This document shows, in pieces, positions 7,241 to 57,309 of a stretch of DNA of 64,000 nucleotides. The notes under the pieces are model-generated. The model was given only the letters and a program-made list of their open reading frames with translations, made no database searches and was not told where the DNA came from. The position numbers and the translations under genes are program-made. The stretch spans positions 59,274,001 through 59,338,000 of the forward strand of contig NC_086097.1 in the NCBI RefSeq assembly GCF_963921235.1, in the 5' to 3' direction. Numbering within the stretch: the first letter of the stretch is position 1; each line of letters opens with the position of its first letter. The stretch comes from Mobula hypostoma (taxonomy: Eukaryota).

Positions 7241-8027
7241 TCAGGTGGAAACCAATGGAACTAGACAGAATTAGCCTGTGTGATATACAATCCAGCTGGC
7301 AGAAAGAATGGTGGTGTAGGCAATAAAACAGTTTACAGTGGTGTTCTCTTCAACTCCTTTTGGGATCTACTGCTTTTTGGCATTTTCCGAATGTCCCAGA
7401 CTTGTTGCACAGAGCAGACGTATTGGACCTTGGCAAAATTATCAATCAAAATGAATGAGAAATTTGAAATGCAACTTACTTAGGAGAGCAAATCAAGTTT
7501 AGATAGTCTATTTTGTTTGTTTAAAAACATCATATTATAGGTAGGCCCAATCACATATACTGTAATTATATCTCCCCATATCAAATAAATCAATATTGTG
7601 GGTTTCCTCTATCTGCACCAACTTGGAATCTTAAAGGATGGTCTTCAAATTAAGCTATTTTAATATATAAGAGTATTACGAGATAGCTTTTTGAAAGGTT
7701 TTACTCTTAAATTTGCTGTATCAGATTACTATCCTCGGATGCAATCTGTAAGTGATGCATTCATTTTCGCTTTGACTTATATTTACTCAAAAATGGACCA
7801 ACATTCATTTAGTAGATTCAATGAAAAGTATTTAACTTTGGTAATAAGCCCATAAGATGGCAACTAGTATTCTTAAAAATGTCAAGGAATATGAAAGCAA
7901 ATCTAAAAATATTTAAAATATATCACCCAAAAGAATCGTCTCATGGAAGACTTGGCCTGGTGATATATAAATGAATTTGAGCACATAAGTGACAATATAA
8001 CAACAAAAAACATTTAATGCAAATATA

Positions 8028-8248
8028 AACATGAGGAAGCCTGCAGTCGCAGGAAATCCAGAGCAACACACACAAAATGCTTGAGGAACCCAGCAGGCCA
8101 GACAGCATCTATGGAAATGAACAACAGCCTGATGTCTCAGGCCAAGGAAGTCCTGAGAATGTTTCTTGGCCCAAGGCATCAACTGTTTGTTCATTTCCAT
8201 GTATGTTGCCTGGCCAGCGGCATTCCTCCAGCATTTTATATGTGTTGT
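8028..8248. mobile_element. Penelope-terminus foldback element
   Basis: Two inverted arms homologous to the PLE end at 25967-26105. TSD ATTTAATGCAAAT at 8012-8024 and 8249-8261. Confidence 0.85.
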
Positions 8249-8439
8249 ATTTAATGCAAATGTAGTTTAGAGCACAATATGTTCCTAAAGCTCTATAGTA
8301 CCCTAAATGGAAATTCTGCCAGAAGATTTTAATTTATATACTATCATCAATCAGTTTTCTATTTAGTGATTTTGTGATTTTTATAAAATTGAAGTATTTG
8401 AAAGCAATTTTATTTTCCCCCTCCTGATGATCAAAGATT

Positions 8440-13049: not shown

Positions 13050-13140
13050 CAAGTCCTGCCAAAGGGTTTCAGGCCAATACGTCAACTGTACTCTTTTCCT
13101 AGATGCTGTCTGGCCAGCTGAGTTCCTCCAGAATTTTGTG
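13050..13140 (+). mobile_element. Penelope terminal fragment (single arm)
   Basis: AGTCCTGCCAAAGGG...TAGATGCTGTCTGGCCAGCTGAGTTCCTCCAG is homologous to the other PLE ends. Confidence 0.75.
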
Positions 13141-16100
13141 AGTATTGTAAATGTATTTTTTGATTAAGCATTCTTTGTTCACATCATTCATTATGAGTTA
13201 TATGTATGTGAATGGCGTACATCGTTATACACCTATTTCATATGTCAGCATCTTACATAAAAAGGGAAAAGAAAAACTAATTAGACAAATATCCTGGTTC
13301 TTACGTTCTTCTTTCACTTAGTTTCTGGAGTTACAAAACATAACATTGGCGACGAGGAAGTTTTAAAGTGAGCCTGAGAAGACAACTTACGTTTTGAAGC
13401 ACAGCAGGGTACAGAGATGTTCGAGTTAAATAAAAGCAGAAAATGGATGAAATTAACAAATATGGCCATGGGTTCATAGACAGCAAGTACCTGGTGATAA
13501 TAATAACATATTTTAAAAAAAGCAGGAATGGCTGGCTACACCGGAAAGGTAGATGCGTTTGATTGCAAAATAGATAACTGGCTGAAAAATCAAGGAGTAT
13601 TTTGAAGGAAATGAAATAGCCAATGAAAAACAAGTGCCAGTGTTACTGAGTGCAATATGTGGAAAAGGATGCCATTTGCTTAGAAGTTAAACTGCTCCAA
13701 CCAAAACAGCCAAAATGAGCTTTGCTTATTTTGTGAACTTAATTCAGGAACATTTAGAATCAAAACCATTACTGATTGCAGAACGCTTTAGGTCTCATAA
13801 GCAGAATCAAAAGGAAGGGGAGCTCACATGGCTGAATTGAAGAAATTGACCGAGCTTTGTCAGTTTACTGATGGGCTTAATGATGCACTGAGAGATCATT
13901 TAGTTTATGGAATCTTACAAGAAGGCATTCAAAAATGCTCCTAACTGAAGCACAACTTACATTTAGAAGAGCAGTTGAAATAGTTGTGTCAATGGAAACA
14001 GGAGACAGAGATAGTTGCTGGAAGGAATGAAAGTGAGTGTGAATAAAATCGCAATATATATACAGAAACCTGTCTGGCTGAACAAATTATATTGCCGTTT
14101 TGGCAGGAGCTCACGTTCACCAGACAAATGCAGGTTTAAAGGCGGAACTTGTAGTAAATGCAATGAAGTAGGACACAGAAACAAAGAGCATGTTGAGCAG
14201 ACAAAAATAAATGGACTGCTTGGGGAAGATAAAAAGATAAAAAGTCAAGTTACAGTTTCAAAAAGAGCACTAACCCGCATGCAGTTGATGAAAAATCTGA
14301 TCGTGAGGAGAGTGACACAGGACTGATAGCCTTGAAGTTTACAATATGAAAACTAGCAAGAGACAAGCAATACGGCTCACATCAGAAATGAACAACAAAT
14401 TAATTAGAATGGAATCAGACACAGGCTCAGCTGTTTCCATCATTTCACAAGATGAGTTTGAATGTCATTTCAAAGACACTGAACTAAAGCCTGCAGACAT
14501 CCAGCTAAGGAATTATACCAGAGAAAAGACAGCTCCTGATGCAGTGGCATTTGTAACAGTGAAATACAACAACCAACAGTAAACATTGGGCCTGAATGTG
14601 GTAAAAACAGGAGAGCCAGCATTGTCGGGCCATGATTGGCTGAGACAGTTACAAATTGATTGGAGATCCATTTGCCACTACCATACCACATCACCTGTAA
14701 TCGTGTGAACTGAAAGTGAATTAAGAAAGGTATTGGAGGATGCCACAACAGTATTCAAGGATAACATTGGAAACTTATCAAGGATGTCTGAACCCTTATA
14801 TCATTTGTGATAAAGTAGCCACTGAACTAGAACATATGGAGGCTGAAGGAATTCTTTTCAAGGCTGAGTTGAGCCCATGGGCAATGCCAGTGGTCCTAGC
14901 AACAAAGAAGAATGGGGCAGTCAGGATCTGTGTCAGTTTTAATGTAACCATCAACCCAGTACTGAACATACTGTAGGTCAATACCCTCTGTCCAGGATAG
15001 AGAGGGGATATCTTTGCAAACCTTTCTAGAGAAAATCACTTCAGCAAAATGAAATTGGCTGAGGTCTACTTGCAGTTGGAGATGGAAAAAGAGTCCGGTG
15101 TTTCCCACCATATACACTCACAAAGGGTTTTATTGCTACATTAGGCTTATTTTTGGAGTAGCATCTACACTTGCATTCTGGCAGAAAGTGATGGACCAAG
15201 TGCTGTAAGACTGCCCAGGTACTCGGTGATTTCTGAATGACATCATTGTTACAGGTGAGGATGACAAGTAACATCTTCAAAATATCAAGACAGTGTTAAA
15301 AAGATTAGAAGATTATGGACTCAGAGCACAGCGTGGCAAGTGTGAATTCTTTAAACCAAGTAACTGTGGTCACACCATTGCTGCACAAGGATTTACGCAA
15401 GTGTGCTGAAAAAATTAGCAGTAATGGATGCACCAAGAGCAAAGGACATGTCACAGTTGTGGTTCTTTATAGTATTTATCAATTAGAGATCAGGAAGAAA
15501 TGGCAATGAACAAAGCAAAGTGAGGTGGCTTTCCAAAAGGCAATGGAGATGCTGAAATCAGACACTGTACTCACACATTAAGACCAGCATCATTAAGTGA
15601 ATCAGTGATGCCTCGACTTATGGTATAGGTGAGTTATGTCACATGTTATGAGTGATGGAAGCGAATGCCCCATAGCTTTTGCATCACATTCCCCTCCACT
15701 GCAGAGTAAAATTACACCCAGTTTGACAGAGGCCTTGAACCTGGTTTGTGGATCATCATTGATCATCAATCATGGGTGTCCATTTTCAATCCATAGAAGG
15801 GTGTTCCACTAACAGCAGCAACATGAATACAGAATTGGGCTCTCTTTCTTGAAGGATATAATTATAAGATCAAATTCAAGAGGTGACCATTCATCAAATG
15901 CAGATAGATTGTCCCATTTATCCTTGGAAAAGGAAATACCTGAAAAATTTACTAAAGAGGACACTCCTCTTGACGTAGTCTCCCTAATGCAAATTGAGAG
16001 TCTCCCTATTACGACAGAGATGATCCAAAGGGGAGCAGAAAAGAATCCATGCGTTTTCAGGTTTGAAATGGCTGGAATGGGAAACAGAAATTCCAGTTCC

Positions 16101-21903: not shown

Positions 21904-22150
21904 AAGTAGGCTTTTTCCACTGAGATTGGGTGAGACTAAAACTAGAGGTCATGGGTTAAGGGTGAAAGGTAGAATATTTAAGGAGAACATGAGTGGGAAC
22001 CTCTTCACTCAGATAGTGGTGCGAGTGTGGAATGAGCTGCCAGCAGAAATGATGGATGCTGGTTCAATTTCAACGTTTAAGAGAAACGGATGGGAAGGGT
22101 ATGGAGGGCTATGGTTCAGGTCCAGGTCGATGGAACTAGGCAGATTAATA

Positions 22151-22349
22151 TCAACAGACACAAAATGCTGGAGGAACTCTGCAGGTCAGGCAGCATCTAT
22201 GCCCATCTTCAGGACTGAAAAGGAAGGTGGAAGATGCCAGAGTAAAAAGGTGGGGAGAGGCAAAGGAGGTGTGAAGGTAATAGCTGCTTCTGCATCTTCT
22301 GTGTGTTGCTTTGGATTTCCAGCATCTATCGACTTTTTTGTGTTTATTA
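22151..22349. mobile_element. Penelope-terminus foldback element (partly deleted)
   Basis: Inverted PLE arms. TSD TAGGCAGATTAATA / TAGACAGATTAATA at 22137-22150 and 22350-22363. Confidence 0.8.
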
Positions 22350-22784
22350 TAGACAGATTAATAGTTTGGCGTGGCTGGAAAGGGATGAAGGGCTGTTCCT
22401 GTGCTGTAGTGTGCTATAACTCTCTGACTACATAAGTCTAACATCTTTGCATGACCAACCCTGATTACACTGATAAAAGGCCAACACTCACACTACATTT
22501 TTTGTCCGAACTGAGACCTTGTACCTTAATACAGAACTCACTCATCAATGGAAGTTGTAGCAAACTAAGGATGAAGATAATGTCCAGGTAAGGCTAGCTT
22601 ACAGATAGTGTGCAGTCATCTAGGCAAGAGAGGTCCATGAAGAGCATAGCTTCACTTTGCACAGATTGGGTTTGGAGCCGTTTGGTATACTGAGACAAGG
22701 TAAATATACAGATGAGGAATCATAGAGTAACACTTACTATTGGTCTTTTAGTTTACTAATTCAGAAGCATTATTGGCCTTTAAC

Positions 22785-24149: not shown

Positions 24150-25182
24150 AGACAAGTTCTCTTGGTGACACCTCGATGTTCTAAAAGCACTAAACAAACT
24201 GAACTAAACTCCTGGGAGCGCACATCTCATGCAGCCTCTGACGGTTGCAGAACACATCGTTCACAATCAAGAAAGCTCACCAACGCTGGTCAAGAGAGCT
24301 GTTCAATGCACGTCAATTTTCTTAATCCTCTACAGACCAGCAGTAGAAAGAATCTGAACAAGCTGCATCACCACATGGTATAGAAACTGCATTGTGGCGG
24401 ATAAGAAGGCTCTACAACAGGTAATCAAAACTGTCCAATACATCAGCAGAACCAGCTTACCCACCATCAAAGACATATGTACAGAAAGGTGCCAGAAAAA
24501 GGCCAGCAATTATGAAGGATGCCACCCATCCTCATCGTGGACTCTTCGTCCAACTCCCATCAGGTAGGAGACCACATAGCATCCTTGCCAAGACCACCAG
24601 ACTCTAAAACAATTACCTTCCCTAAGCAGTAAGGCTAGTCGATACCTCCATCCACTAACCCACCCCAGCACTAACCCACCACAAAAGCACACGTGAGATC
24701 CTGGAGGAACTCAGCAGACCAGGCAGCTTCTATGGAAAAGAGTAAACAATCATTGTTTCGGGCTGAGATGCTTCATCAGGACCCTGATGAAGGGTCTCAG
24801 CCCGAAATGCCAACTGCTTACTCACTTCCCTAGATGCTATCTGGCCTGCTGAGTTCCTCCAGCATCTTGTGTGTGTTGCTTTGGATTTCCAGCATCTGCA
24901 GGTTTTCTCCTGTTTGTGACTAACCCACCACCACTACTTTATTATTTCCTGCCAGAATCACCCTATATGCAGACACTGCTGTGGCTAGTGTCACAATGTG
25001 TACATACAATCAATCTATGTATATAAGCTATCTTATGTATTTATATTTATTGCATGTTTTTCTATTGTGTTCTGTATCTTAGTATGTTTTCTTTTACTGC
25101 ATCACAGTCAGAGTAACAATTATTGCATTCTCCTTTGCAGTTGTGTACTGGAAATTACATTAAACAATCTTGAATCTTGAAT
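24150..25182 (+). mobile_element. Rex1/Babar LINE 3' portion
   Basis: TGCATCACCACATGGTAT (CITTWY), CCATCAGGTAGGAG (PSGR), and AATCTTGAATCTTGAA tail. Interrupted at 24683-24918. Confidence 0.8.
24683..24918. mobile_element. Penelope-terminus foldback element
   Basis: Centre TTCATCAGG-AC-CCTGATGAA with inverted arms. Exact TSD ACTAACCCACCAC at 24670-24682 and 24919-24931. Confidence 0.9.
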
Positions 25183-25549
25183 GTTCCAGGATTAAAGAAG
25201 AAGCTGTTAACAATAAGACAGCATCATGACATTTCTAGCCCTCAGACTCCCTTTTATGGTTTTATTTGAAGTCAGTTAATGTTTAGTTCAGTCTTTGTCT
25301 TATTCTTTCTAGAAAACTACCCTGCTAAATCTCGAAGCCAGAAATCATTGCACTGTTTATATTCTTTGGAACATCTCACTAATCATTACTTTAATTCAGA
25401 CCAAGTTTTTCCTATTAGTTGCAAAAAAATTGTGTTATATATTGCTTAACTATTTGAGAACTTTTAAAAAGAATTTCTGCTTATCAAGAGGATAATTTTA
25501 AACTGTGCAAGTTTTCAGTTTTGACGATGGTAACATCCTAAAAGTGAAA

Positions 25550-25680
25550 GATTGCAAATGCTGGACTTCTGAATTCAAAACAGAAGATGCTGGAGATGCT
25601 CTGTAGATCAGGCAGCATTTGCAGAGAGTAAATCAGTTTTAACTCTTCAGGTTAATAATGTGAGGATGAGTTAGAAATCA
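25550..25680 (-). mobile_element. Older Penelope terminal remnant
   Basis: TGCAAATGCTGG...AGAAGATGCTGGAGATGCTC..AGATCAGGCAGCATTTG is a diverged PLE end. Confidence 0.55.
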
Positions 25681-25966
25681 ACCATGTTTTACTTTGTAAA
25701 AAAGGGGGAAAGATGGAGAGAAAGAAATAAATGTTTGCAAAGACCATAAGAGACTGAATGACATACTTGGTAGTGGTGTATTGTTGGATGATGTTGAAGG
25801 CTTATTACAACTGAATAGTCTAAACAGGACCTTGTATGGCACATGCCTGCTTCAACATTTTTGAGGGTTCAAGGTGGTTGCCACAATTTGAAGAGAATGG
25901 AAATTGCATTTACTGGAAATCTGAAATAAAATCCTGCATTAATCAACATCAAACATTGATTTTACT

Positions 25967-27325
25967 ACGCAAACAACAGGAATTCTGCAGATGCTGGAAA
26001 TTCAAGCAACATACATCAAAGTTGCTGGTGAACGCAGCAGGCCAGGCAGCATCTGTAGGAAGAGGTGCAGTCGACGTTTCAGGCCGAGACCCTTCGTCAG
26101 GACTAACTGAAGGAAGAGTGAGTAAGGGATTAGAAAGTTGGAGGGGAAGGGGGATATCCAAAATGATAGCAGAAGACAGGAGGGGGAGGGATAGAGCCGA
26201 GAGCTGGACAGGTGATAGGCAAAAGGGGATACGAGAGGATCATGGGACAGGAGGTCCGGGAAGAAAGACAAGGGGGGGGGTGACCCAGAGGATGGGCAAG
26301 AGGTATATTCAGAGGGACAGAGGGAGAAAAAGGAGAGTGAGAGAAAGAATGTGTGCATAAAAATGAGTAACAGATGGGGTACGAGGGGGAGGTGGGGCCT
26401 TAGCGGAAGTTAGAGAAGTCGATGTTCATGCCATCAGGTTGGAGGCTACCCAGATGGAATATAAGGTGTTGTTCCTCCAACCTGAGTGTGGCTTCATCTT
26501 TACAGTAGAGGAGGCCGTGGATAGACATGTCAGAATGGGAATGGGATGTGGAATGGGATCTGGCGGACAGAGCGTAAATGTTCAGCAAAGCGGTCCCCCA
26601 GTCTGCGTCAGGTCTCGCCAATATATAAAAGGCCACATCGGGAGCACCGGACGCAGTATATCACCCCAGTCGACTCACAGGTGAAATGTTGCCTCACCTG
26701 GAAGGACTGTTTGGGGCCCTGAATGGTGGTAAGGGAGGAAGTGTAAGGGCATGTGTAGCACTTGTTCCGCTTACACGGATAAGTGCCAGGAGGGAGATCA
26801 GTGGGGAGGGATGGGGGGGACGAATGGACAAGGGAGTTGTGTAGGGAGCGATCCCTGCGGAGTGCGGGGGGGGGGGAGGGAAAGATGTGCTTAGTGGTGG
26901 GATCCCGTTGGAGGTGGCGGAAGTTACGGAGAATAATATGTTGGACCCGGAGGCTGGTGGGGTGGTAGGTGAGGACCAGGGGAACCCTATTCCTAGTGGG
27001 GTGGTGGGAGGATGGAGTGAGAGCAGATGTACGTGAAATGGGGGAGATGCGTTTAAGAGCAGAGTTGATAGTGGAGGAAGGGAAGCCCCTTTCTTTAAAA
27101 AAGGAAGACATCTCCCTCGTCCTAGAATGAAAAGCCTCATCCTGAGAGCAGATGCGGCGGAGACGGAGGAATTGCGAGAAGGGGATGGCGTTTTTGCAAG
27201 AGACAGGGTGAGAAGAGGAATAGTCCAGATAGCTGTGAGAGTCAGTAGGCTTATAGTAGACATCAGTGGATAAGCTGTCTCCAGAGACAGAGACAGAAAG
27301 ATCTAGAAAGGGGAGGGAGGTGTCG
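25967..27325 (-). mobile_element. Penelope-like element, 5'-truncated (RT thumb/linker, GIY-YIG endonuclease, 3' terminal repeat)
   Basis: SQFLRLRRICS, FFKERGFP, RVPLVLTYHP, CKRNKCYTC, FTCESTGVIYCVRCSRCGLLYIGET*RRLGDRFAEH, EQHLIFHLGSLQPDGMN. One premature TGA at 26608 and a small deletion. Possible TSD TTACTAC. Confidence 0.95.
26069..26104 (-). ncRNA. Minimal type I hammerhead ribozyme motif
   Basis: AGUC-CUGACGA-AGG(GUCUCGG)CCU-GAAA-C-GUC-GACU: intact core, stem I AGUC/GACU, stem II AGG/CCU, loopless palindromic stem III (ACGU). Confidence 0.8.
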
Positions 27326-27371
27326 TTACTACCCTTGTTTGCCTGACCTGTTGAGTACTTGCAACATTTTA

Positions 27372-28567
27372 GTTCAAAGTCAAGGTAAACTTACCAAATA
27401 CAACTCTGAAATTCATTTTCTTGCAGGCATTTTCAGAAAAAAAGAATGCAATAGAATTTTATAAAAGACTCAGCATAAACAGACAAAGATTGACCAACAC
27501 CAACATGCAAAAAAAAACAAACTATGCAAATAAAAATAATACTGAGAACATAAGTTGTAAAGAGTCCATAAAAGTGAAACTGTAATGGTGAGGGAAGTTC
27601 AAGAGCCCGAAGATTTTAAATTTCCCTAAACCTGGTGGATGGGTCCTAAAGCTTCTGTTCCTCTTACACAAAGGTAGCGGCAAGGAGAAGACATGCCTGG
27701 ATGGTGAGCGTCTTTGATGATGGAAACTACTTCCTAGTGACAGCATTTCACATTAATATACTCAATGGTGGGGAGTGCTTTGCTTGTGATGGACTGGGCT
27801 GTGTGCACCACTTTCTACAGCTTCTTCCATTCCTGGGCATTGGTGTTACTACACCAGGCCATGATGCAACCAGTTAGGATACTGTCTAGTGTTCATTTAT
27901 AGAAGTTTGTCAAAGTTTTTGATATAATGCCAAATTTATGCAAAATTCTAAGAAGTCGATAGACTTCTTTGTGATGACACCTACATGATGGTCTCAGGAT
28001 AGATCCTCTGTATGGTAACATCAAGGAATTTAACGCCACTGATCCTCTCCACCTCGGCTGTTTGGTCATGATGACTTTCAGTGAAAGGTTGTTGTGGTGG
28101 TACCAAAGTTCAAAGTTCAAAGTAAAATCTATTATCAGAGTACATACATGTCATCACATGCAATCCTGATAGTCATTTTCCTGCGGGCATACTCAGCAAA
28201 TCTATAGAATAGTAGCTATAAACAGGATCAATGAAAGAGAAAATAGAGAATAGAAGAAAACAGACTGTGCAAATGCAAATATACATAAATAAATAGCAAT
28301 AAATAATGAGAGCATGAAATAACAGCATAAAGAGCCCTTAAAGTGAGATTATTGGTTGTGGAAACATCTCAATAGATGTGTGTAGTTATCCTTGTTCATT
28401 CAAGAGCTTGATGTGTGAGGGGTAGTAACCGTTCTTGAACCTGTTGGTGCGAGTCCTGAGGCATCTGCACCTTCTACCAACCAAATTTTCTATCTTTATC
28501 CTCTATGCCGATTTGTTATCATCATTGATTTGGCCAACATCAGCGATGTCATCAGCAAACGTAAATA
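27372..28567 (-). mobile_element. Rex1/Babar 3' fragment containing a second nested Rex1 3' end (28104-28458)
   Basis: Two (TTTGAAC)n tails at ~27372 and ~28104; WYHHNNLSL and FGIISKTLTNFYK. 28104-28440 matches 1638-2000. Confidence 0.8.
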
Positions 28568-28583
28568 CTCAATATATAGTTAT

Positions 28584-31120
28584 TTAAAAGCGTATGGTGC
28601 AAATCATCTCCATTATGGAACAATAATCGTTTTCTATCTGGGGGGAACCATTCACTAACAGAACTTGAAGATATTAATGGGGCAAGTACTATCCTTAGCT
28701 TTCAAGAACTGATATCTCAATATAATATTGATAAACACTCGCTTTTCTTCTACTTTCGAGTAGATCAGCTTGTAAAGCCTACAGCGTTCCCTGGGGGTCA
28801 GATTTAAAGGACCATCCAATTTTAAGTTGGATACAGTGTGTTCCAAGACAGATAGTGTCATATATCTATGATAAATTAAACTCTCAGAAATATATGCCTA
28901 CATTGGGAATGAAAGCCTGAGATAGGGATATATCTGAATTGGGACAAGACTTAAACTGGGATGCGATTTGGGATAATGCTGCCGGTGCTTTGAAAAACCC
29001 AAATCATCGGTATATACACTTGAAATTTTGTGATAGAGCATATTTAACACTGAGAATTAGACATCAAATGGGACTGGTTCCTGACCCATATTGCTCATTT
29101 TGCCCCCATGGAACCGTTGGCTCTTTTATACATGTTACATAGAAACATAGAAACATAGAAAATAGGTGCAGGAGTAGGCCATTCGGTCCTTCGAGCCTGC
29201 ACCGCCATTTATTATGATCATGGCTGATCATCCAACTCAGAACCCCGCCCCAGCCTTCCCTCCATACCCCCTGACCCCCCGTAGCCACAAGGGCCATATC
29301 TAACTCCCTCTTAAATATAGCCAATGAACTGGCCTCAACTGTTTCCTGTGGCAGAGAATTCCACAGTTTCACCACTCTCTGTGTGAAGAAATTTTTCCTA
29401 ATCTCGGTCCTAAAAGGCTTCCCCTCTATCCTCAAACTGTGACCCCTCGTTCTGGACTTCCCCAACATCGGGAACAATCTTCCTGCATCTAGCCTGTCCA
29501 ATCCCTTTAGGATCTTATACGTTTCAATCAGATCCCCCCTCAATCTTCTAAATTCCAACGAGTACAAGCCCAGTTCATCCAGTCTTTCTTCATATGAAAG
29601 TCCTGCCATCCCAGGAATCAATCTGGTGAACCTTCTTTGTACTCCCTCTATGGCAAAGATGTCTTTCCTCAGATTAGGGGACCAAAACTGCACACAATAC
29701 TCCAGGTGTGGTCTCACCAAGGCCTTGTACAACTGCAGTGGTACCTCCCTGCTCCTGTACTCGAATCCTCTCGCTATAAATGCCAGCATACCATTCGCCT
29801 TTTTCACCTCCTGCTGTACCTGCATGCCCACTTTCAATGACTGGTGTATAATGACACCCAGGTCTCGTTGAACCTCCCCTTTTCCTAATCGGCCACCATT
29901 CAGATAATAATCTGTTTTCCTATTTTTGCCACCAAAGTGGGTAACTTCACATTTATCCACATTAAATTGCATCTGCCATGAATTTGCCCACTCACCCAAC
30001 CTATCCAAGTCACCCTGCATCCTCTTAGCATCCTCCTCACTGCTAACACTGCCGCCCAGCTTCGTGTCATCCGCAAACTTGGAGATGCTGCATTTAATTC
30101 CCTCATCCAAGTCATTAATATATATTGTAAACAACTGGGGTCCCAGCACTGAGCCTTGCGGTACCCCACTAGTCACCGCCTGCCATTCTGAGAAGGTCCC
30201 GTTTATTCCCACTCTTTGCTTCCTGTCTGCTAACCAATTCTCCACCCACACCAATACCTTACCCCCAATACCGTGTGCTTTAAGTTTGCACACTAATCTC
30301 CTGTGTGGGACCTTGTCAAAAGCCTTTTGAAAATCCAAATATACCACATCCACTGGTTCTCCCCTATCCACTCTACTAGTTACATCCTCAAAAAATTCTA
30401 TGAGATTCGTCAGACATGATTTTCCTTTCACAAATCCATGCTGACTTTGTCTGATCATTTCACCGCTTTCCAAATGTGCTGTTATCACGTCCTTGATAAC
30501 TGACTCCAGCAGTTTCCCCACCACCGACGTTAGGCTAACCGGTCTATAATTCCCCGGTTTCCCATATGTTGTATGGGAATGTCCAGGGGTTTTTGATTTG
30601 TGGGGGAAGGTTATCAGTACTCTTACAGAGCTAACAGGGGTACAATTACCAATGGACTCTGCTGTACATCTTCTAAATGATGACTCCCACCTTTCCCTTA
30701 TGGGAAAAACACGCAAAATCTGGCAGGCAGGCCTAACTGCAGCTAAGAAGATTGTAGTCCAGTGTTGGAAACCTCCCCATGATATTTCAAATACTCACTG
30801 GCTTCGGAGCTTTTTGGACATTTCTTACCTGGAACTTTCATCAGCAAGAGTAAATGATGCACGACCAAACACAATCTTAATGTGGACAAATTTGATATCT
30901 AACTTAAAAGATCTATCGTTAAAATAGGAATATTTTGTCTGTGTATGTACTACTATTCAGTTGGTTGGCGGAGGGGAGAGGGATGGGGGAGAAAGGGCTG
31001 GAGGGGGGATGGTGATGAAAGTTGGGGGGTGACTGTATTAAACAGTCAAAATGTAATTGGCAATTGGTTGTATTGAATGTAATTTGTTGGTGTTTCAATA
31101 AAAAATTAATAATAAAAAAC
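28584..31120 (+). mobile_element. 5'-truncated L1-clade LINE (ORF2 C-terminus), split by CR1
   Basis: WDAIW..HRYIHLKFCDRAYLT..YCSFC..GSFIHV|VWECP..W..AAKKIVVQCWK. AATAAA and A-rich tail. TSD ATAGTTAT at 28576-28583 and 31121-31128. Confidence 0.9.
29137..30563 (-). mobile_element. Young 5'-truncated CR1 with uninterrupted RT domain
   Basis: GNYRPVSLTS, QHGF, YLDFQKAFDKVPH, GVPQGSVLGP, FADD in one frame; (TTTCTATG)n tail; TSD ACATGTT/ATATGTT. Confidence 0.97.
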
Positions 31121-32062: not shown

Positions 32063-32580
32063 ATGAAGTTCCCTTCCTGTTCTTAGGTCAAAGAGAGCAT
32101 AAGTGACATTGACCTTATCTAGGAGCCGAACTTTGTTGCTATTTACTGGATGTTCATTGTTTTGTTTTGCAGGAGATAATGGCATTCAAGCCCTACCATG
32201 GTTGCTGAGCATCTATGATTTAATGTTAGTTTCGAATTGCCACTTCGTTCATGAAGTGACCTTCCAGAGGTCATACCTTGAACTCTTGTACTTTCCCAGA
32301 TGACCACTTCTAAGCTTATATTTTAATGTCAGCAGGAAGTGCTTGGTTGAGTTATTTGAAAGGTATGGTAGAACACAAAGATGGTGTCCTGCAAATGAAG
32401 ATCATTCTACTTCACATGGTGCTGAAAAGAGAAACAGTACTTGCAATTTCATGATTAATTGATAATGGGAATAGAAGCCATAATGCAATAAAATGGAAAC
32501 ATAAGAAGAAAAATACTTTAATTGCACATTCTTTTTAAAACATGTTTATCTGAATGGTGCGTTTATCTGAAAGGTAAACA

Positions 32581-32750
32581 CTTTCAAATCTCTTACTAGC
32601 TCTTCCTTCAGTTAGTCCTGACGAAGGGTCTCGGCCTGAAACTTCGACTGTACCTCTTCCTGGAGATGCTGCCTGGCCTGCTGCATTCACCAGCAACTTT
32701 GATGTGTGTTGCTTGAATTTCCAGCATCTGCAGAATTCCTCGTGTTTGCG
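32581..32750 (+). mobile_element. Penelope 3' terminus with hammerhead-like motif (32614-32649)
   Basis: Near-identical to the reverse complement of 25967-26140; core CTGACGA...GAAAC-TTC. Confidence 0.9.
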
Positions 32751-38721: not shown

Positions 38722-39019
38722 CATAGATGTGTGAACAAGAGAAAGTGTGATACTAGATCTCTTATTAGGGAATAAGACAGGGCAGGTGACAAAAGTTTGT
38801 GTAGGGGAATACTTTGCATCTAGTGGCCATAATGCCATTAGTTGCAGAGTAGTTATGGGAGAAGGTAGTTCTGGTTCTGGAAATAGACAGGCCAAGTTTA
38901 ATGGTATCGGAAAGGATCAGGTGACTCCTCCTACTGGCATTGCATGGAGTAGACACGATTCTCGAAAGGCTCCGTTCTTTTTAAATTACTGAATCCAAAA
39001 AACTTACTTTTGGAGTATT

Positions 39020-39822
39020 ATGATGTCTCATGCTAAAACTTTTAAAAAAGAAGAGGATCCTTCTGTAACTATGGAAGCTATTGCGGAGTTAATTCAGAAA
39101 GCTCAGAGCGAAACGTCTGAACAACTTTCGGATGTATGTTTAAAAGTTACCACAAAGCTTAAACGAATGGAGATTCTGCTGCAGATTTTGCAGAAAACTT
39201 TACAGGAACATACTACTCAGATTCAAGAACATGAAGATACTTTAACCAGACTGGACACTAAGACGGATGAATTGGAAAAGCTCAGAGATAAACAATCGAA
39301 AATTGTTGAATCTTTAAGACAAAAGATTGTTGCTTTGGTGAATAGATCAAGAAGGAACAATATACAAATTTTGGGTCTTCCTGAGTTGGTCGAAGGCAAG
39401 CGACCTGCAAATCTGTTGGCTCGTTTGTTTTCTGATGTTTTGGAGACTCCACCAAGAATAGACAGGGCACACCGAATTCCAATGTTTAGACCCCCTTCTC
39501 AACAAAAACCTTAACCTGTGATAATTGCTTTTCATATCTTCCAAACTAAGGTTTCTATAATTCACCAATCTTGTCAGTTAGGTATAATTAACTTTGAAGA
39601 TTATAAGATAAGGCTGGTCAAAGATTATTCGCCTGAGGTATTAAATGAACGTTTTAAGTATATAAAAAGATTATGGTGGAGTTATATAACAAAGGCTATA
39701 AGCCTTCACTAAATTACCTCGCTCGCCTCAGGATCATTTTGGAAAATGGCTCTCCTAAGTGGTTTCGTTCGATTGAGGAAGAGCATGAATTTCTTCAGGC
39801 CAAATTAAGTCCAGAAGACTAA
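39020..39822 (+). pseudogene. L1 ORF1 (coiled coil, RRM, CTD), disrupted
   Basis: Heptad-rich N-terminus, NRSRRNNIQILGLPE, IDRAHR, stop at 39514, then DYS and YLARLRI after a frameshift. Confidence 0.9.
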
Positions 39823-40628
39823 TTGTTTAATACTGTATCATATAAATTACACTTCCTTAGCTTGACCGATTCTCTGTTGTTGGATGTTTGCAATCTAATG
39901 GTTTAGTATGTCTTTTATTTTGAACAATTCTCTCTTCTATTCTCGTAAACTCTTATAATTAGTTTCTGTTCTTATCGTATTTTCTTTGCCGAGTTAATTT
40001 TTTTTCAACATGATGTTTTGAACTCTTGTTTAGCTCTTTGGAATAATATTTAGTCTATCAACTCCAGAAGTTTAAATGTTTGTTTCTGCTTCATATAACC
40101 TTGTTTCCTTAGTTTGACTGATCAATTCATTGTAATTGTGCAGTTTATTTGTTTATTACTTTTTTCTTTGAATAATTCTTTTTTCGATATATTTTCATAA
40201 ATAATTCTTCTTTTTCTTCTCTTTTTTATTTTTTCTATTTAGGAAATTAATAGACTTAACTTCAGTAAGGTTTCTTTCTAATTATTTTTTGCAAACATTA
40301 CGTTTTGATTTTTTTTAGTTCTTTTGAAGGTTATTAGTCTAGGTTGGAATTCATTCTGTACTAATCTTTTCTTCTTTTGAAGCTTTGCCAGTAGGATGTT
40401 GGGGGAGGAATTTATCAGTAGATTAGCTTTCGCCCTCGCTTGGGTGATTTTCTTCCTTGGGAGGGGGGGTGGACAGCAGTGGGCTTTTTTTTTCTTTTTC
40501 CTTTTTATCCGCTGTTTGGTTATCCCTGCCTCATCTATTGCTTTGTCAAGTATTTTGAATTTTAAGGTTTGGATTTTTGGTATATTCCAGTGGTTTATAT
40601 GTTTAACCTCTTTTTTAAACATAATCAA

Positions 40629-43600: not shown

Positions 43601-44400
43601 TGAACAACTATCTATTAAATATGATCTTCCTAAAGCTCACTTTTTTTAGATATTTACAAATTAGAGACTTCTCACATTCTCAACTTTATACATTTCCTAA
43701 TTGTCCAGATAAGAATTTACTTGATAAAATTTTTACTTTGAAACCTTTTCATAATGGATCTATTTCTAATATTTATAGTAGGTTGTTGGCATTGAGAAAC
43801 ATTCCATTAGACAAAATTAAAAACCTCTGGGAACATGACCTACAGATTTCAATTGATGAGGATACTTGGAATGAAATTTTTAAACTTGTTCACTCCTCTT
43901 CGTTATGTGCGCGTCACCCTCTTTTACAATTTAAAGTGGTTCATAGAGCCTATATGACTAAAGGTTGGCTCTCTCATTTTTATTCAGATTTTTCTCCATA
44001 CTGTAATAGGTGTAATGTCGAAGAGGCCTCTCTAATTTATATGTTTTGGTCCTGCCCGCGGCTTGATGAATTTTGGAAAAAAGTATTTCAAACTTACTTG
44101 GAGCTTTTTAAAGTAAACTTTAAACCCAACCCTCTGACTGCCTTGTTTGGCATTGTTGGAGGAAATGATTTTACTCTTAAGCTGAATGATTTGCATATTT
44201 TGGCTTTTATTTCTCTTTTAGCCAGAAGAGTTTTGTTGCTTAAATGGAAAGATGCCACTCCACCTACTCAAGCCCATTGGTTGATTGATGTTATGTCATG
44301 TTTAAATCTAGAGAAGATTAGCTGTTCTATTTCTATACCTTGACAAGATTTTTTCACATTATGGGGACCTTTTTGGAACTACTTTTACAATTTTCAATTT
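40629..44400 (+). pseudogene. L1 ORF2 (APE endonuclease, RT, CCHC), multiple frameshifts and stops
   Basis: SLNVKGLN, FLQETH, NLYAPN, GGDFN, SRIDY, SDHAP; SLDAEKAFD, GTRQGCPLSP, YADD; CNRC..W.CP. Confidence 0.95.
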
Positions 44401-48945: not shown

Positions 48946-49367
48946 CTTAACCCAATCCCTTCCAATATCCAGATCTGCCCTTGTAACTCAGTCCCTCCCA
49001 ATGCCTGGACCTGTCCTTGGAGCTCATCCCATTCCAATGCCAGGCTTTGGATATTCAGAAGAGGTTGTCATTGAGCTTACCCGCTGAACTCTATGATTCC
49101 GTGAAAGACTTCCCCCTAGTCCTGCTTCTCAATTTGTGAAAAAAAATCTGAGGAAGAGAAGCAGATATAGGCTTATAGAGGCAATATGAGGGAATAGGTG
49201 TGGCAAAATGGAAGGTAATGCAAGAAGCTGAGCACAGTGGGAAGAGAACAAAGATAGAGGGAGGGGGTGAATGGGGTATCATGGAGGTGGCAGAGTGGGG
49301 ATGGTTGGAGGAAAAGGGGATGTTTGGAATAGGAATGAAAATTGTACGATAGGTTCTGTATCTCACA

Positions 49368-49520
49368 ACATTACACAAAATATTGGAGTGAAATAAGCAG
49401 TTAACGTTTCTGGCTGAGACCTTTCACCAATTCCTTTTCTTAGATGCTGCCTGATTTGCTGAGTTCCTCCTGTATTTTGTGTGCGTTGCTTAAGATTTCT
49501 GGAACCTGCAGCATCTTTTG
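49368..49520. mobile_element. Degenerate Penelope foldback element
   Basis: ACACAAAATATTGGAG..GTTAACGTTTCTGGCTGAGACC, then TAGATGCTGCCTGATTTGCTGAGTTCCTCC..GTGTGCGTTGCT. Confidence 0.7.
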
Positions 49521-51804
49521 AGTTCTATCTCACTTCCTGTTTCTCCCTTGCACTTTCTCCCTCTCCGTCACTCTCAGTAACACACCATTTCCCGTTGTTT
49601 ATTTTCTATGCAACCTCATCCCCCCCCCCAGCCTGTCCACCCCACCCCATCTACCAGATACTAACTCCCTTGTTCTCTTTTCATGCTTTTCAAGCTAATT
49701 GATTTTGCAAGGCCTGCACAGGCAAGCCCTCCAGGTCTCCACCCAGCTAATTGGAGTCACTTTCCACTTATTTCCAACTCATCACCAGCAACCTATTTAA
49801 ACTCAACCCTCATCCACAGTCCTTGTTCACCCATCGAACCAGCCAGCCTCAACCACTTGTTCCTAGCCTTCAGTTACCTTGTTACTTTGTCATGTTAAGT
49901 ATCCATTCTCTCCTGTTTCGTAGTCCCTCACGGCATGTTATTATGCAGTTTATTATAGACATGATTGCTCCCTGTTACATTGTGACCACTGCATTGCATT
50001 TGGTCAAGACTCTTCTACACTTCCTGACAGGCTGGGTGAGTCAGTGAATGAACCAGCACCTTAACAAGTACGTGATCCAGAAGCAGCAGGAAACCATTAT
50101 CCATCTGTTCACCACTCTCAACCAACTCTCTATCTCATTATAACAACCCAACACCAGCCAACCACCTCCCTCAGAGCCCTTTGATTCCAGTTCCCTAACC
50201 CTTCGACGAATCCCCAAACCAATACTGCATCTTTCTGTCCCAGTGCATCTTCCACTTCGAGCTGCAGCAATCTTTGTATTCTTGGACCGAGACTAGATTG
50301 CCTACGTCATCTTTCTATCGACTGGGCGAGCTCTGACATGGGCTGCTGCTAACTGGGACAATAAAATGACTAACTGCAATAAATATAAGGAATTCACCGC
50401 TGAGATGTGCTGGGTGTTTGACCATCTGGGAAGTGGAAGGCAGGCAGTGAATTAGATACTTCGCCTGCGTCAAGGCTCACACTCGGTGATCGATTACACT
50501 GTGGAATTCAGGACCCTCACGGTGGAATGCGGCTGTAATGTGAATGTGCTGTGCGCTTCCTGCCCATTACCGTCGTTGCCTCTCAGAGCACTTAAAAGAT
50601 GAGCTAGCAGCCCAGGAGATACACACCAACCTTTGGCTCTCTATGTTGACAAGCATATTATGGACCACCCCTACAGATTACCAGCCAGAAACCCAGTTCC
50701 CCTCCCAGAAGCATTTCAGGCTGCAGAACACTTATCAACAATACCTGCAGAACCCTTGCTGTTTAGGAGAGCTCACCTAACACCTCGGCCCCCACCCCCA
50801 AGAGTGCGAGCGTCTGTGGAGAAACAACTTGTGCGCTTACTGCAGAGCAGCCAATCACTCACGTATCAAATGCCCACCGAATCTGAGAAAACGTTATTAC
50901 CAGATAGAGACGAGGGGCCTCCTACCTGCTGAGCTCCGTCCTGGCAGCTTGTCCAGGACCATAGCTCTGCCTGTTCTCCTCAACACCCTGATGACTCTAT
51001 GCGCACAGGGGGCTCCGGTGGATTCCAGTGCTGCAGGCAACTTTCTAGGTCAGATGCTGCGGTGTAGGTTGGACACCGTGCTGAGCCTATCTCACACCCC
51101 TTTCTGCATCACGGCCATTGATGAGTGTACCTTGGGGTTTGAGATGGTCAGAACATGAATATAGTCGGTGCTCATGAGCATTGGAGAGCACCATGAGTCC
51201 GTCCAATTCTCATCGACTCACCCAATACTTCTCTCATCTTGAGCTACCACTGGCTCTCCACTCACAACCCTCACTTCGCCTGGTCATCCGGTTCACTGCT
51301 GAGTTGGGGACCTGCCTGCTAAACCATCTGTCTGCAACCACAGGTAAATCAATAAATCAATGGAGACCCGTAAATCAGTGGAGATGGAAGAAACTCTCGA
51401 CCTCACCAAACTCATGCAGAATACCATGATTTAGCCATTACCTTCATTAAAAGAGAAGCCAGCAATTGCTACCTCACAGACTACATGACTGCACAATTGA
51501 ACTCCTCCCAGGCACCAGCTCTCCCCGAGTTCATCTGTTCTCCCACTCCACTCCTGAGATCCAAGCCATGAATGACTTCATCACTGAAGCACAACAGCAC
51601 AGCTTCATTCAACCATCCCAGTCTCCAGCTAGTGCAGGATTCCTTTTTTGTCAACAAGAAAGAAAGGTGTCTCCATCCCTGCGTCAACTACCATGGATTC
51701 AACAAAATCACCACTAAGAACTGCTACTCTTAATGGATAGTGCATTTGAAACACTCCACAGGACCCAGATCTTCACCATATTGGATCTACAGCACCCTTA
51801 CAAC

Positions 51805-52330
51805 ATGTTCAGAATAAAAGGTAAAGATAACAGGTGAAGGGAACTTTGGTTTTCAAGAGATATTGAGACCCTGGTTAAGAAAAAAAATGGAGGTGCATTG
51901 CCGGTATGGGCAGATAAGAACAAGTGAGCTATTTATGAAGTATAAGAAATGCAAAGGAACACAAGAAAGAAATCAGGAGGGCTAAAGAAGGCATGAGGTT
52001 GCCTTAGCAAATAAGGGATTCTACAGATACGTTAAGAGCAAAAGGATTGCAAGGGGCAAAATATTGTAGGTCCTCTAGAAAATCAGAAAGGTAATCCAGG
52101 TTACAGAGGAGGAGGTGTTTGCTGCTTTGAGGCAAATTAGGGTGGATAAATCCCCAAGACCTGACAAGATGTTCCCTCGGACCCCATGGGAGGCAAGTGC
52201 AGAAATTTTTGGGGCCTTAGCAGAGATATTAAAATCATCAAGAAAGGCTCTAAGAATAAACTAGGAAATTATAGGTCAGTGAGCCTGACTTCAGTAGTGG
52301 GAAAGTTATTGGAAGTTATTCAAAGGGATC
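51805..52330 (+). mobile_element. Internal CR1 ORF2 fragment inserted in the chromovirus RT
   Basis: GFYRYVKSKR, IRVDKSP.PD, KKGSKNKLGNYRSVSLTSVVGKLLE. Confidence 0.85.
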
Positions 52331-52442
52331 TTGACATGAGACGTCAACTGTTTATTCTTTTCCATAGATGCTGCCTGGCCTGCTGAGTTTTTCCAGCATT
52401 TTGTGTATGTTGCATTGGATTTCCAGCATCTCATGTTTATGA
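52331..52442 (+). mobile_element. Penelope terminal fragment (single arm)
   Basis: ACGTCAACTGTTTATTCTTTTCCATAGATGCTGCCTGGCCTGCTGAG...GGATTTCCAGCATCT. Confidence 0.8.
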
Positions 52443-54274: not shown

Positions 54275-55345
54275 GCTGTAGACAGAATCTCAGATGGCGA
54301 TGAGGAGGCATACAGAAGTAAGATAGATCAGCTGGTTGAGTGGTGTTGCAATAACGACCTTGAACTCAGTGTGTGTAAGACCGAGGAATCAACTGTGGAC
54401 TTTAATAAGACCAAGAAATTGACTGTGGACTTTAGGTAGGGGAAGTCAAAGGAATACACACCTGTCCTCATTGAGGGCTCTGCAGTGGAAAGCATGTGCA
54501 GTTTCAAGTTCCTTGTTGTCAACATCCCTGAAGATCTAACCTAGATCCAACAGATTTCAATTGATGCAATTGCAAAGAAGGTATGTCAATGGTTTTATTT
54601 CATTCAGATTTTGAGGAGATTTGGTATATCATCAAATACACCAGCAATTTTCTATAGGTGTGTCATGGAGAGCATTCTAAATGGTTACATCACCATCTGG
54701 TACAGAGGGGCCACTGGATAGGATAGAAAGTGTTGTAGAGCGTGGTGAACTCAGCCAACTCCATAATGAGCACTAGCCTCCCCCGTGTTGAGGACATTTT
54801 CAAAAGGCAATGCCTCAAATAGGCAACATCCATCATTAAGGACCCTCATTACCCTAAACATGCCTTCATATTATTACTACCATCAGAGAGAGGAGGTACA
54901 GAAACCTGAAGACACACACTTAATGCTTTAGGAACAGCTTCTTCACCTCTGGCTTCAGATTTCCAAACACAAAATGAACCAATCCATAAATACTACAACC
55001 CTATAGTATTTTTTATATATTGCACTGTATTGTTTCAGAAATAACAACAAATTTCACAACACATGTCAGTGATATTAACAGACATGAGAAAGTCTGCAGA
55101 TGCTGGAAGTCCAAGGCAAAACACACAAAATACTGGATGAACTCATCAGGTCAAGCAACATATATGGAAATGAATAAACAGTTAATGTTTTAGGCCAAGA
55201 CCTTTCTTTAGTCCTAATGAAGGGTCTCAGCCTGAAACGTTGACTGTTTATTCACTTTCATAGTTCCTGCCTGACCTTCTGAGTTGCTTCAGCATTTTGT
55301 GCGTTTTGCCTCAGCGATAGTAAACATGATACAGATTTAGATTCA
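54275..55345 (+). mobile_element. Rex1/Babar 3' fragment
   Basis: WCCNNDLELSV.KT..TVDFR, FKFL..NI.EDL, FYRCVMESIL..ITIWY; 3' UTR split by a PLE foldback. Confidence 0.85.
55079..55310. mobile_element. Penelope-terminus foldback element
   Basis: Inverted PLE arms; right arm GTCCTAATGAAGGGTCTCAGCCTGAAACGTTGAC. TSD TCAGTGATATTAA / TCAGCGATAGTAA. Confidence 0.88.
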
Positions 55346-57215: not shown

Positions 57216-57309
57216 TGTGTTAAGTACTGGTTATTGAACAACGAAATATGGAAAAAGATACAAAGCTGTTTATCGTTTGTGCTATTGGATATTTTGTAAC
57301 AGGAGTGTA

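What the first reader, a model, noticed from the sequence alone, without database searches (positions are those of the whole stretch)
24670..24931. Recurrent Penelope foldback units with back-to-back hammerhead cores
The centre reads TTTCGGGCTGAGATGCTTCATCAGG-AC-CCTGATGAAGGGTCTCAGCCCGAAA, giving a CUGAUGA..GAAA core on each strand, with the symmetry axis just upstream of both. The same architecture recurs at 8028, 22151, 49368 and 55079, with 13-16 bp TSDs at all but 49368. One arm is usually ~35-40 nt shorter. Inverted terminal repeats and hammerheads are established for Penelope-like elements. The inference is that these are either a non-autonomous hairpin retroelement family or stereotyped minimal insertion products whose fold point is tied to the ribozyme. 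Transcripts would form long dsRNA hairpins.
Basis: partly seen in the sequence, partly recalled or inferred. Interest (0 to 1): 0.7.

Follow-up and report, generated by a model that had tools for sequence, protein, structure and literature searches.

The report
Two-armed Penelope retroelement insertion stumps
These small hairpin-shaped repeats are dead, very short insertions of a common jumping gene, each leaving two mirror-image copies of its end; this is a known pattern, not a new self-copying element, although where the two halves meet may show how such insertions are made.

Summary
The 24670-24931 unit is real: two head-to-head copies of the hammerhead-bearing 3' end of a Penelope-like retroelement (Neptune/Nematis type, ray-like genome), inside a 13-bp target duplication. 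Five such units lie in the window, each with one arm carrying the known 35-39-nt tail and one without it. The recurrence is overstated: only 2 of 5 have back-to-back cores, all 5 junctions differ, and 0 of 10 arms keep an intact catalytic core. The two arms of one unit share private mutations (P about 0.01); short arms of different units do not group. So these are independent insertion products, not a self-propagating family. Arm starts cluster at the ribozyme's 5' edge (6 of 10 within -6 to +2), not at its cleavage site. That edge holds a 4-bp inverted repeat and a splice-acceptor-like pyrimidine tract. Best mechanism (inferred): both nicked target strands prime reverse transcription, at the two known start sites, and the two cDNAs are joined head to head. 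The tail-less arm reaches further upstream in 4 of 5 units, which argues against fold-back of the tailed cDNA. The scan noted this pattern before, in this genome and a shark.

The parts
24670..24682 (+). target-site duplication, left copy (13 bp)
   Evidence: 13/13, 1 of 400 random pairs as good
24683..24782 (-). short arm: Penelope 3' end without tail, from -3 relative to the hammerhead CUGA box; decayed core at 24779-24756
24783..24918 (+). long arm: Penelope 3' end with tail, from -1; decayed core at 24784-24807, predicted cleavage position 24811/24812
24883..24918 (+). tail, about 36 nt, present on one arm only; its two limits match the two family-wide 3' ends
   Evidence: loose ends at 24880-24883 and about 24915-24919 in three DNA runs
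24919..24931 (+). target-site duplication, right copy
8012..8261 (.). two-armed unit: long arm 8027-8146 (-, stops at +13), short arm 8149-8247 (+, from -4), 13-bp TSD
22137..22363 (.). two-armed unit in a CR1-like 3' end: short arm 22152 to about 22283 (-, reaches about -70, 34-nt internal deletion through the core), long arm about 22284-22345 (+, from about +70), 14-bp TSD
   Evidence: empty-site paralogue at 45496-45687, where the two flanks overlap by 14 bp
49359..49533 (.). two-armed unit: short arm 49367-49429 (-, to about +2, internal deletion), long arm 49430-49525 (+, from about +37), candidate 8-bp TSD
55066..55323 (.). two-armed unit: long arm 55079-55211 (-, to +1), short arm from 55208-55212 to 55310 (+, from -6 to -2), junction on the local 4-bp inverted repeat, 11/13 TSD
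25969..27325 (-). 5'-truncated Penelope-like element of a related, younger subfamily: C-terminal part of the ORF (CX4CxxC linker, GIY-YIG with two internal Cys, premature stop), 3' UTR, intact minimal hammerhead core 26100-26073, tail; 7-bp TSD
32580..32750 (+). single long arm of the younger subfamily, from about -38, intact core, no TSD found
13052..13147 (+). single short-type arm starting at -4, no TSD found
52322..52438 (+). single long-type arm starting at about +22, no TSD found

Best explanation
Each unit is a separate, dead, extremely 5'-truncated insertion of an endonuclease-bearing Penelope-like element (PLE), and its mirror half was built during that insertion. Shown here: the arms are PLE 3' ends; each unit is TSD-flanked; one arm ends at the distal and one at the proximal family-wide 3' end; junctions are all different. 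Inferred: the endonuclease nicks both target strands 8-14 nt apart; each 3'-OH primes reverse transcription of PLE RNA, one at the distal start (tailed arm) and one at the proximal start 35-39 nt upstream (tail-less arm); both cDNAs usually stop after about 100-135 nt at the 5' edge of the hammerhead and are joined head to head with 0-4 nt of microhomology. Inferred, least certain (about 50%): the stop-and-join hot spot comes from the 4-bp inverted repeat TCAG-TC-CTGA plus the pyrimidine tract and AG directly upstream, not from ribozyme cleavage. The back-to-back cores are a by-product of this geometry.
For: Arms match the 3' end of the ORF-bearing element at 27325-25969 (72-78% identity for the longest arm matches), whose protein matches RT plus GIY-YIG proteins, best in rays and sharks (74% Hypanus). 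TSDs in 5 of 5 units, two of them weak; empty-site paralogue for 22152. One long plus one short arm in 5 of 5 (P=0.03 if each arm chose evenly). Two discrete 3' ends in three DNA runs. Junctions differ in 5 of 5; 6 of 11 shared non-CpG changes fall on the 3 same-unit pairs among 15 pairs, P=0.012. The tail-less arm reaches further 5' in 4 of 5 units and by 2 nt or level in the fifth. Published: a PLE protein cleaves and extends both strands, starts at two sites that define the tail, and is predicted to be a dimer (PMC11167929); inverted pLTR, one-sided tail and TSD are typical of PLEs (PMC3846280; PMC8557442).
Against: Only five old units (arms 76-77% identical), three of them used for the shared-change test; gene conversion between arms could also give same-unit sharing, and 5 of 11 shared changes cross units. 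Overall identity within a unit (76-77%) is not clearly above the best between-unit values (up to 78%). Two units carry later deletions, so junctions may have been remodelled. Only 1 of 5 junctions (55079) sits cleanly on the 4-bp repeat. PMC11167929 saw no difference in start site between the two strands, so the one-long-one-short coupling is unexplained by it. The direct parent subfamily with its ORF is not in the window. The genome-wide junction map could not be made (one search showed 15 of 4459 joints).
Confidence: 0.68

Rival explanations
1. A non-autonomous hairpin family: one or a few master fold-backs are transcribed and re-inserted whole by PLE protein.
For: Units 24670 and 55079 are alike in size (236 and 232 nt) and their junctions differ by only 2-3 nt. 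The tailed arm carries the 3' signal that a PLE protein would need (inference from PMC11167929).
Against: 5 of 5 junctions differ; only 2 of 11 shared changes join arms of the same type in different units, against 6 within units. The TSD abuts the short-arm end within about 0-3 nt in every unit, which copying of a read-through hairpin RNA would not fix.
Confidence: 0.1
2. Self-priming: a single cDNA, or an antisense template, folds back on a local palindrome and copies itself, and the endonuclease then trims the tail from one end (the model suggested for rotifer PLEs).
For: PMC3846280 reads palindromes at inverted junctions as self-priming; PMC8557442 ascribes the tail to endonuclease resolution. 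The 55079 junction lies on a short-loop inverted repeat, and at 49367 the junction is 9 nt short of the product expected from fold-back on helix I (my reading).
Against: A tailed cDNA that folds back cannot give a second arm reaching further 5' than itself, yet that is so in 4 of 5 units; at 24670 the loop would be 2 nt or less. A mixed route (the tail-less cDNA folds back, then pairs with a second, tailed cDNA) fits the data but still needs two primings.
Confidence: 0.12
3. The units began as much longer inverted PLE insertions; unstable palindromes later lost their centres, so today's junctions are deletion scars.
For: Internal deletions of about 33-34 nt in the short arms at 22152 and 49367; 22152 keeps about 70 nt of upstream UTR. 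Long palindromes are deletion-prone (my knowledge).
Against: Six of 10 arm starts fall within -6 to +2, and a single arm (13052) also starts at -4; 24670 and 55079 remain near-perfect palindromes with 2-nt spacers, which such deletions usually destroy (my knowledge).
Confidence: 0.09
4. A DNA-transposon MITE with long terminal inverted repeats.
For: Short, non-coding, inverted-repeat, TSD-flanked.
Against: The ends are unequal by 35-39 nt, TSD length varies from 8 to 14 bp, and the arms are the 3' end of an RT plus GIY-YIG element.
Confidence: 0.01

Closest known systems
PLE insertions with inverted pLTR, one-sided 30-40-nt tail and TSD (Arkhipova et al. 2013, PMC3846280; Craig et al. 2021, PMC8557442; Schostak et al. 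2008, PMC2377424; passages seen)
   Same: Head-to-head inverted 5'-truncated copy, tail on one end only, palindrome at the junction, TSD around the whole insert.
   Different: Here both halves are only about 65-135 nt, with no ORF between them, and the junction clusters at the 5' edge of the hammerhead; the passages I saw do not map junctions against the ribozyme.
[quoted passage not shown]
   Same: Bulged A before stem II, palindromic ACGU in place of helix III, short helix I; that paper also reports pairs of min-HHRs 100-700 bp apart on opposite strands in Schistosoma, and a D. virilis intron that ends at the 5' end of helix I.
   Different: Here the pair is 2-4 nt apart in two units and all ten fold-back cores are decayed or missing; no shark or skate term in the supplementary file searched.
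PAc Poseidon of Anolis, internal initiation of reverse transcription (Frangieh et al. 2024, PMC11167929; parts 1-2 of 4 read)
   Same: Two start sites that define the tail, AT-rich targets, extension of both target strands, ribozyme cleavage not needed.
   Different: Different clade (Poseidon); the parts read do not explain inverted insertions, and report no strand difference in start site, whereas here 5 of 5 units pair one long with one short end.
L1 twin priming (as summarised in PMC2912911; passages seen)
   Same: Two target-primed cDNAs joined at microhomology give an inverted 5' part inside one TSD.
   Different: In L1 the second primer anneals internally on the same RNA; here both arms copy the same 3' segment from two fixed starts, so a second template or re-use of the first is needed.
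Non-LTR retrozymes (Li, Clavereau and Pollet, bioRxiv 10.64898/2026.07.22.740005; part 1 of 5 and passages seen)
   Same: Short, non-coding, pLTR-derived, type I hammerhead.
   Different: Retrozymes are head-to-tail tandem repeats with intact ribozymes; these units are head-to-head, single and decayed.

Membership tests
EN+ Penelope-like element | Linked to an ORF with RT and C-terminal GIY-YIG endonuclease | tested here: met
   For the related subfamily at 27325-25969 only: homologues carry PF00078 and PF01541; the window fragment itself had no Pfam hit. The units' own parent is not in the window.
EN+ Penelope-like element | [quoted passage not shown] | tested here: met
   VIYCVRCSRCGLLYIGET in the ORF; definition from PMC8557442. 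The histidines were not checked.
Neptune or Nematis clade | CX2-5CxxC linker before a C-terminal endonuclease | tested here: met
   CKRNKCYTC in the ORF; definition
Neptune clade | RT phylogeny groups with Neptune rather than Nematis | not tested
   No labelled reference sequences at hand; the RT core is missing from this copy
EN+ Penelope-like element | Optional 30-40-nt tail on one end | tested here: met
   5 of 5 units; two family-wide 3' ends 35-39 nt apart
EN+ Penelope-like element | Inverted 5'-truncated copy and TSD around the insert | tested here: met
   TSD strong in 3 of 5, weak in 2 of 5
min-HHR | Eleven invariant core letters and stem II | tested here: not met
   0 of 10 fold-back arms; met in 2 of 2 arms of the younger subfamily
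min-HHR | Self-cleavage, as a dimer | not testable with these tools
   Needs an RNA assay; no Rfam hammerhead match at gathering score in the window or at E up to 10 in 24600-26300
Self-propagating non-autonomous family | Shared junction among copies | tested here: not met
   5 of 5 junctions differ; window only
Self-propagating non-autonomous family | Diagnostic changes shared by like arms of different copies | tested here: not met
   2 of 11 same-type, 3 of 11 other-type, 6 of 11 same-unit; three units only
Non-LTR retrozyme | Head-to-tail tandem units, each with a hammerhead | tested here: not met
   All paired arms are head to head
MITE | Symmetric TIRs at both termini and a fixed TSD length | tested here: not met
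   Ends differ by 35-39 nt; TSD 8-14 bp

The most novel reading that the evidence does not exclude
PLE integration is a coupled two-ended reaction: the protein dimer primes one target strand at the distal RNA start and the other at the proximal start, and both enzymes tend to stop at a conserved 3' splice site that abuts helix I of the hammerhead (as the D. virilis Penelope intron does), for example because splicing factors block them there. This would explain the tail, the head-to-head repeats and the junction hot spot with one mechanism, and the very numerous ray copies would test it: one long plus one short arm as the rule, the short arm overshooting, and arm starts piling up at the AG.
Probability: 0.22. 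Interest if true: 0.62.

Novelty: new member of a known kind. Interest (0 to 1): 0.3.

Why it matters
As objects the units are ordinary decayed transposon scraps. Their value is as a fossil record of a step that PMC8557442 calls still undefined: how PLEs make inverted repeats and tails. Contig depth on the arm is about five orders of magnitude above neighbouring unique DNA (not a copy number), so a ray assembly should hold enough units to decide between two-ended priming and self-priming by computation alone. If units in introns are transcribed, they would also be ready-made hairpins without needing two separate insertions, but that was not shown.

Tried and rejected
Genome-wide junction map: no whole genome is held. 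Pattern scans found 0 matches in metagenome contigs, viral contigs and prokaryote genomes. Contigs of four runs laid on 24783-27450 showed 15 of 4459 joints and 24 of 8966 loose-end rows; no fold-back joint was among those shown, which says nothing, because the list was cut and short-read contigs break at hairpins. The depth fall upstream of the hammerhead (11.1 to 3.4 million in X1) was rejected as evidence for a truncation hot spot: depth rises again by 26170-26199, and other subfamilies align only to the conserved part. No RNA holder was listed; the RNA-like run X24 has no depth in five unique bins, which is no evidence either way. A-to-I editing and small RNAs could not be examined. Rfam gave no hammerhead match. 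Single-core folding gave no significant z-scores. Use of the splice acceptor by host genes: 1 of 2 RefSeq ray proteins with an in-frame piece of this repeat begins that piece where splicing at the younger subfamily's CAG would put it, the other includes two upstream codons, and a second frame found 0 hits: inconclusive. My TSD scan used a wrong 5' boundary for the 27325-25969 element and missed its 7-bp TSD, which I read. Left out of the arm counts: two remnants of a more distant subfamily (25543-25652, 62422-62471) and two weak profile hits (27340-27370, 51623-51647). Fold at the cleavage site was rejected: 0 of 14 arm starts lie at +29 (nearest about +22 and +37). Host gene context was not determined. 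Not in print as far as searched: searches gave no paper on minimal two-armed PLE units in cartilaginous fish (judged from listings and the passages read); Arkhipova 2006, Evgen'ev and Arkhipova 2005, Repbase and Dfam were not consulted, Lunse et al. was not held, and supplementary file 1 of PMC4209133 and the preprint's supplements were not seen; any of these may describe it.

Full report
1. Observation. The index unit is as described. Arms 24679-24780 and 24783-24884 are 76% complementary, with CTGATGA..GAAA boxes at 24784-24807 (+) and 24779-24756 (-). An exact 13-bp duplication flanks it, and 1 of 400 random flank pairs scores as well. The RNA folds into one hairpin (z -13.95, 0 of 200 shuffles). 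A profile search of the window gave 18 hits: ten arms forming five two-armed units (8027, 22152, 24683, 49367, 55079), four single arms (13052, 25969, 32580, 52322), and four remnants or weak hits that I left out of the counts.

2. What the arms are. They are the 3' end of a Penelope-like element. At 27325-25969 (-) a 5'-truncated copy of a related, younger subfamily runs from an ORF fragment through a pyrimidine-rich UTR into the same end. The ORF has a CX4CxxC linker and a GIY-YIG motif with two internal cysteines, the marks of Neptune or Nematis PLEs in PMC8557442 (passages). Its best relatives are from Hypanus (74%), Rhincodon, Stegostoma and Chiloscyllium, and longer relatives carry RT and GIY-YIG domains. 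A translated piece of the end is 97% identical to a Mobula gene model, so the host is probably a ray (inference). Contig depth on the arm is about 3.5 million against 14-23 on nearby unique DNA in run X1; this is not a copy number, but the family is very abundant.

3. Anatomy of the five units. Positions count from the C of CUGA as +1; the predicted cleavage site is +28/+29. Every unit has one arm ending at the distal end and one ending 35-39 nt earlier. The same two ends stand out among the loose ends of three DNA runs: at 24880-24883 and at about 24915-24919, followed by AT-rich, low-agreement sequence (X1: 1007 against 2202 plus 1077 contigs, which showed 24 of 8966 rows; the first class may include variant tails). 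TSDs are 13/13, 13/14, 13/13, 8/8 and 11/13; the last two are weak (5 and 14 of 400 random pairs). For 22152 a paralogous host repeat at 45496-45687 is an empty site: the left and right flanks overlap there by exactly 14 bp (1 of 5 units gave such a site). The 5' starts (short arm, long arm) are: 24683: -3, -1; 55079: -6 to -2, +1; 8027: -4, +13; 49367: +2, +37; 22152: about -70, about +70. So back-to-back cores exist in 2 of 5 units, and all five junctions differ.

4. The ribozymes are dead. None of the 10 arms keeps all 11 invariant core letters, while both arms of the younger subfamily do. In the index unit both cores lack U16.1. The cores face away from each other on opposite strands, so a transcript holds one sense core, paired inside the hairpin. 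They cannot form the tandem dimer described in PMC4209133 (parts 1-2 read) within one RNA (inference).

5. Family or independent products. In the three best-kept units, 11 non-CpG changes are shared by two arms. Six join the two arms of one unit (3 of 15 possible pairs; binomial P=0.012), two join like arms of different units and three join unlike arms. Against this reading, overall identity within units (76-77%) is no higher than the best between units (78%), and gene conversion could mimic the result. Taken with five different junctions and TSDs that abut the short-arm end, independent formation at insertion is the better reading (about 85%).

6. Mechanism. PMC11167929 (parts 1-2 of 4) shows that a PLE protein cleaves and extends both target strands at AT-rich DNA, starts at two RNA sites that bound the tail, does not need ribozyme cleavage, and is predicted to be a dimer. 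I infer that one target end primes at the distal site and the other at the proximal site, and that the two cDNAs are joined head to head, as in L1 twin priming (PMC2912911, passages) but on the same RNA segment. Two observations point this way. All five units are long plus short (P=0.03 at even odds). The tail-less arm reaches further 5' in four units and by 2 nt or level in the fifth (P=0.06 for 4 of 4). A tailed cDNA folding back on itself, one reading of the self-priming idea in PMC3846280 (passages), cannot produce that. Both counts are small.

7. Why the fold sits at the ribozyme's edge. Six of 10 arm starts and 1 of 4 single-arm starts lie within -6 to +2, and none of 14 is at the cleavage site; the interval was chosen after seeing the data. 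Two features coincide there. One is a 4-bp short-loop inverted repeat, the only one of 4 bp between -54 and +113 in the younger subfamily; the 55079 junction sits on it, the others do not cleanly. The other is an acceptor-like site: 14 of 15 pyrimidines before the CAG at -5 to -3 in the 22152 copy, reached by 13 of 4052 YAG sites in the window. The whole upstream UTR is 78% pyrimidine, so this may be composition only. PMC4209133 notes that the D. virilis Penelope intron ends at the 5' end of helix I. My test for use of this acceptor was inconclusive.

8. Comparison and novelty. Inverted pLTRs, a one-sided 30-40-nt tail, junction palindromes and TSDs are described for PLEs, and opposite-strand min-HHR pairs 100-700 bp apart are reported in Schistosoma. 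The units fail the tests for MITEs, retrozymes and a self-propagating family. Eight paper searches gave no account of such minimal units in cartilaginous fish, but key reviews and repeat databases were not available to me. Earlier notes of this scan reached the same reading in this genome and in a shark; I had stated my reading before seeing them, and they are unchecked notes, not evidence.

9. Verdict. A real but known kind of structure: new member of a known kind, interest 0.3. The part worth following is the pair of testable rules, one long plus one short arm and short-arm overshoot, and the possible link of the junction hot spot to a splice site; if these hold genome-wide they would address how PLEs make inverted insertions.

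Noticed in passing
window 27340-27380 and 25880-25960 (-): The ORF-bearing Penelope copy seems to have landed inside an older, more distant two-armed unit: an antisense short-arm piece lies on its 5' side and a tail-like piece on its 3' side, outside the 7-bp TSD (weak matches). This would be a sixth unit and a PLE-into-PLE insertion.
   Followed up: partly
window 26109-26100 (-) and 22217-22213 (-): A strong splice-acceptor-like pyrimidine tract plus AG abuts helix I of the hammerhead in both subfamilies. Two Mobula RefSeq gene models carry an in-frame piece of this repeat, and both pieces stop at the short 3' end, which suggests exonisation.
   Followed up: partly
window 56958-58602: Inverted pair of CR1-like sequences, 71-80% complementary, 1.1-1.4 kb apart: a minus-strand CR1 piece abuts a plus-strand CR1 5' region at about 57215; probably two separate copies head to head.
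   Followed up: partly
window 38993-44343 (+): Long decayed L1/Tx1-like LINE (my reading of the ORFs), with an ORF1-like frame and a 400-aa RT frame.
   Followed up: no
window 29064-30794 (-): CR1-like element with a 576-aa open RT frame, next to an L1-like 3' fragment at 30550-30927; probably young.
   Followed up: no
window 50781-51158 (+): Frame with a zinc-knuckle-like and protease-like motif, by my reading an LTR-retrotransposon gag-protease remnant; no Pfam hit.
   Followed up: partly
window 25153-25991: The unique flank beside the index unit is shared by runs of two other organisms, X5 and X9, so the age of the insertion could be bracketed from their assemblies; presence of the unit itself there was not shown.
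   Followed up: partly
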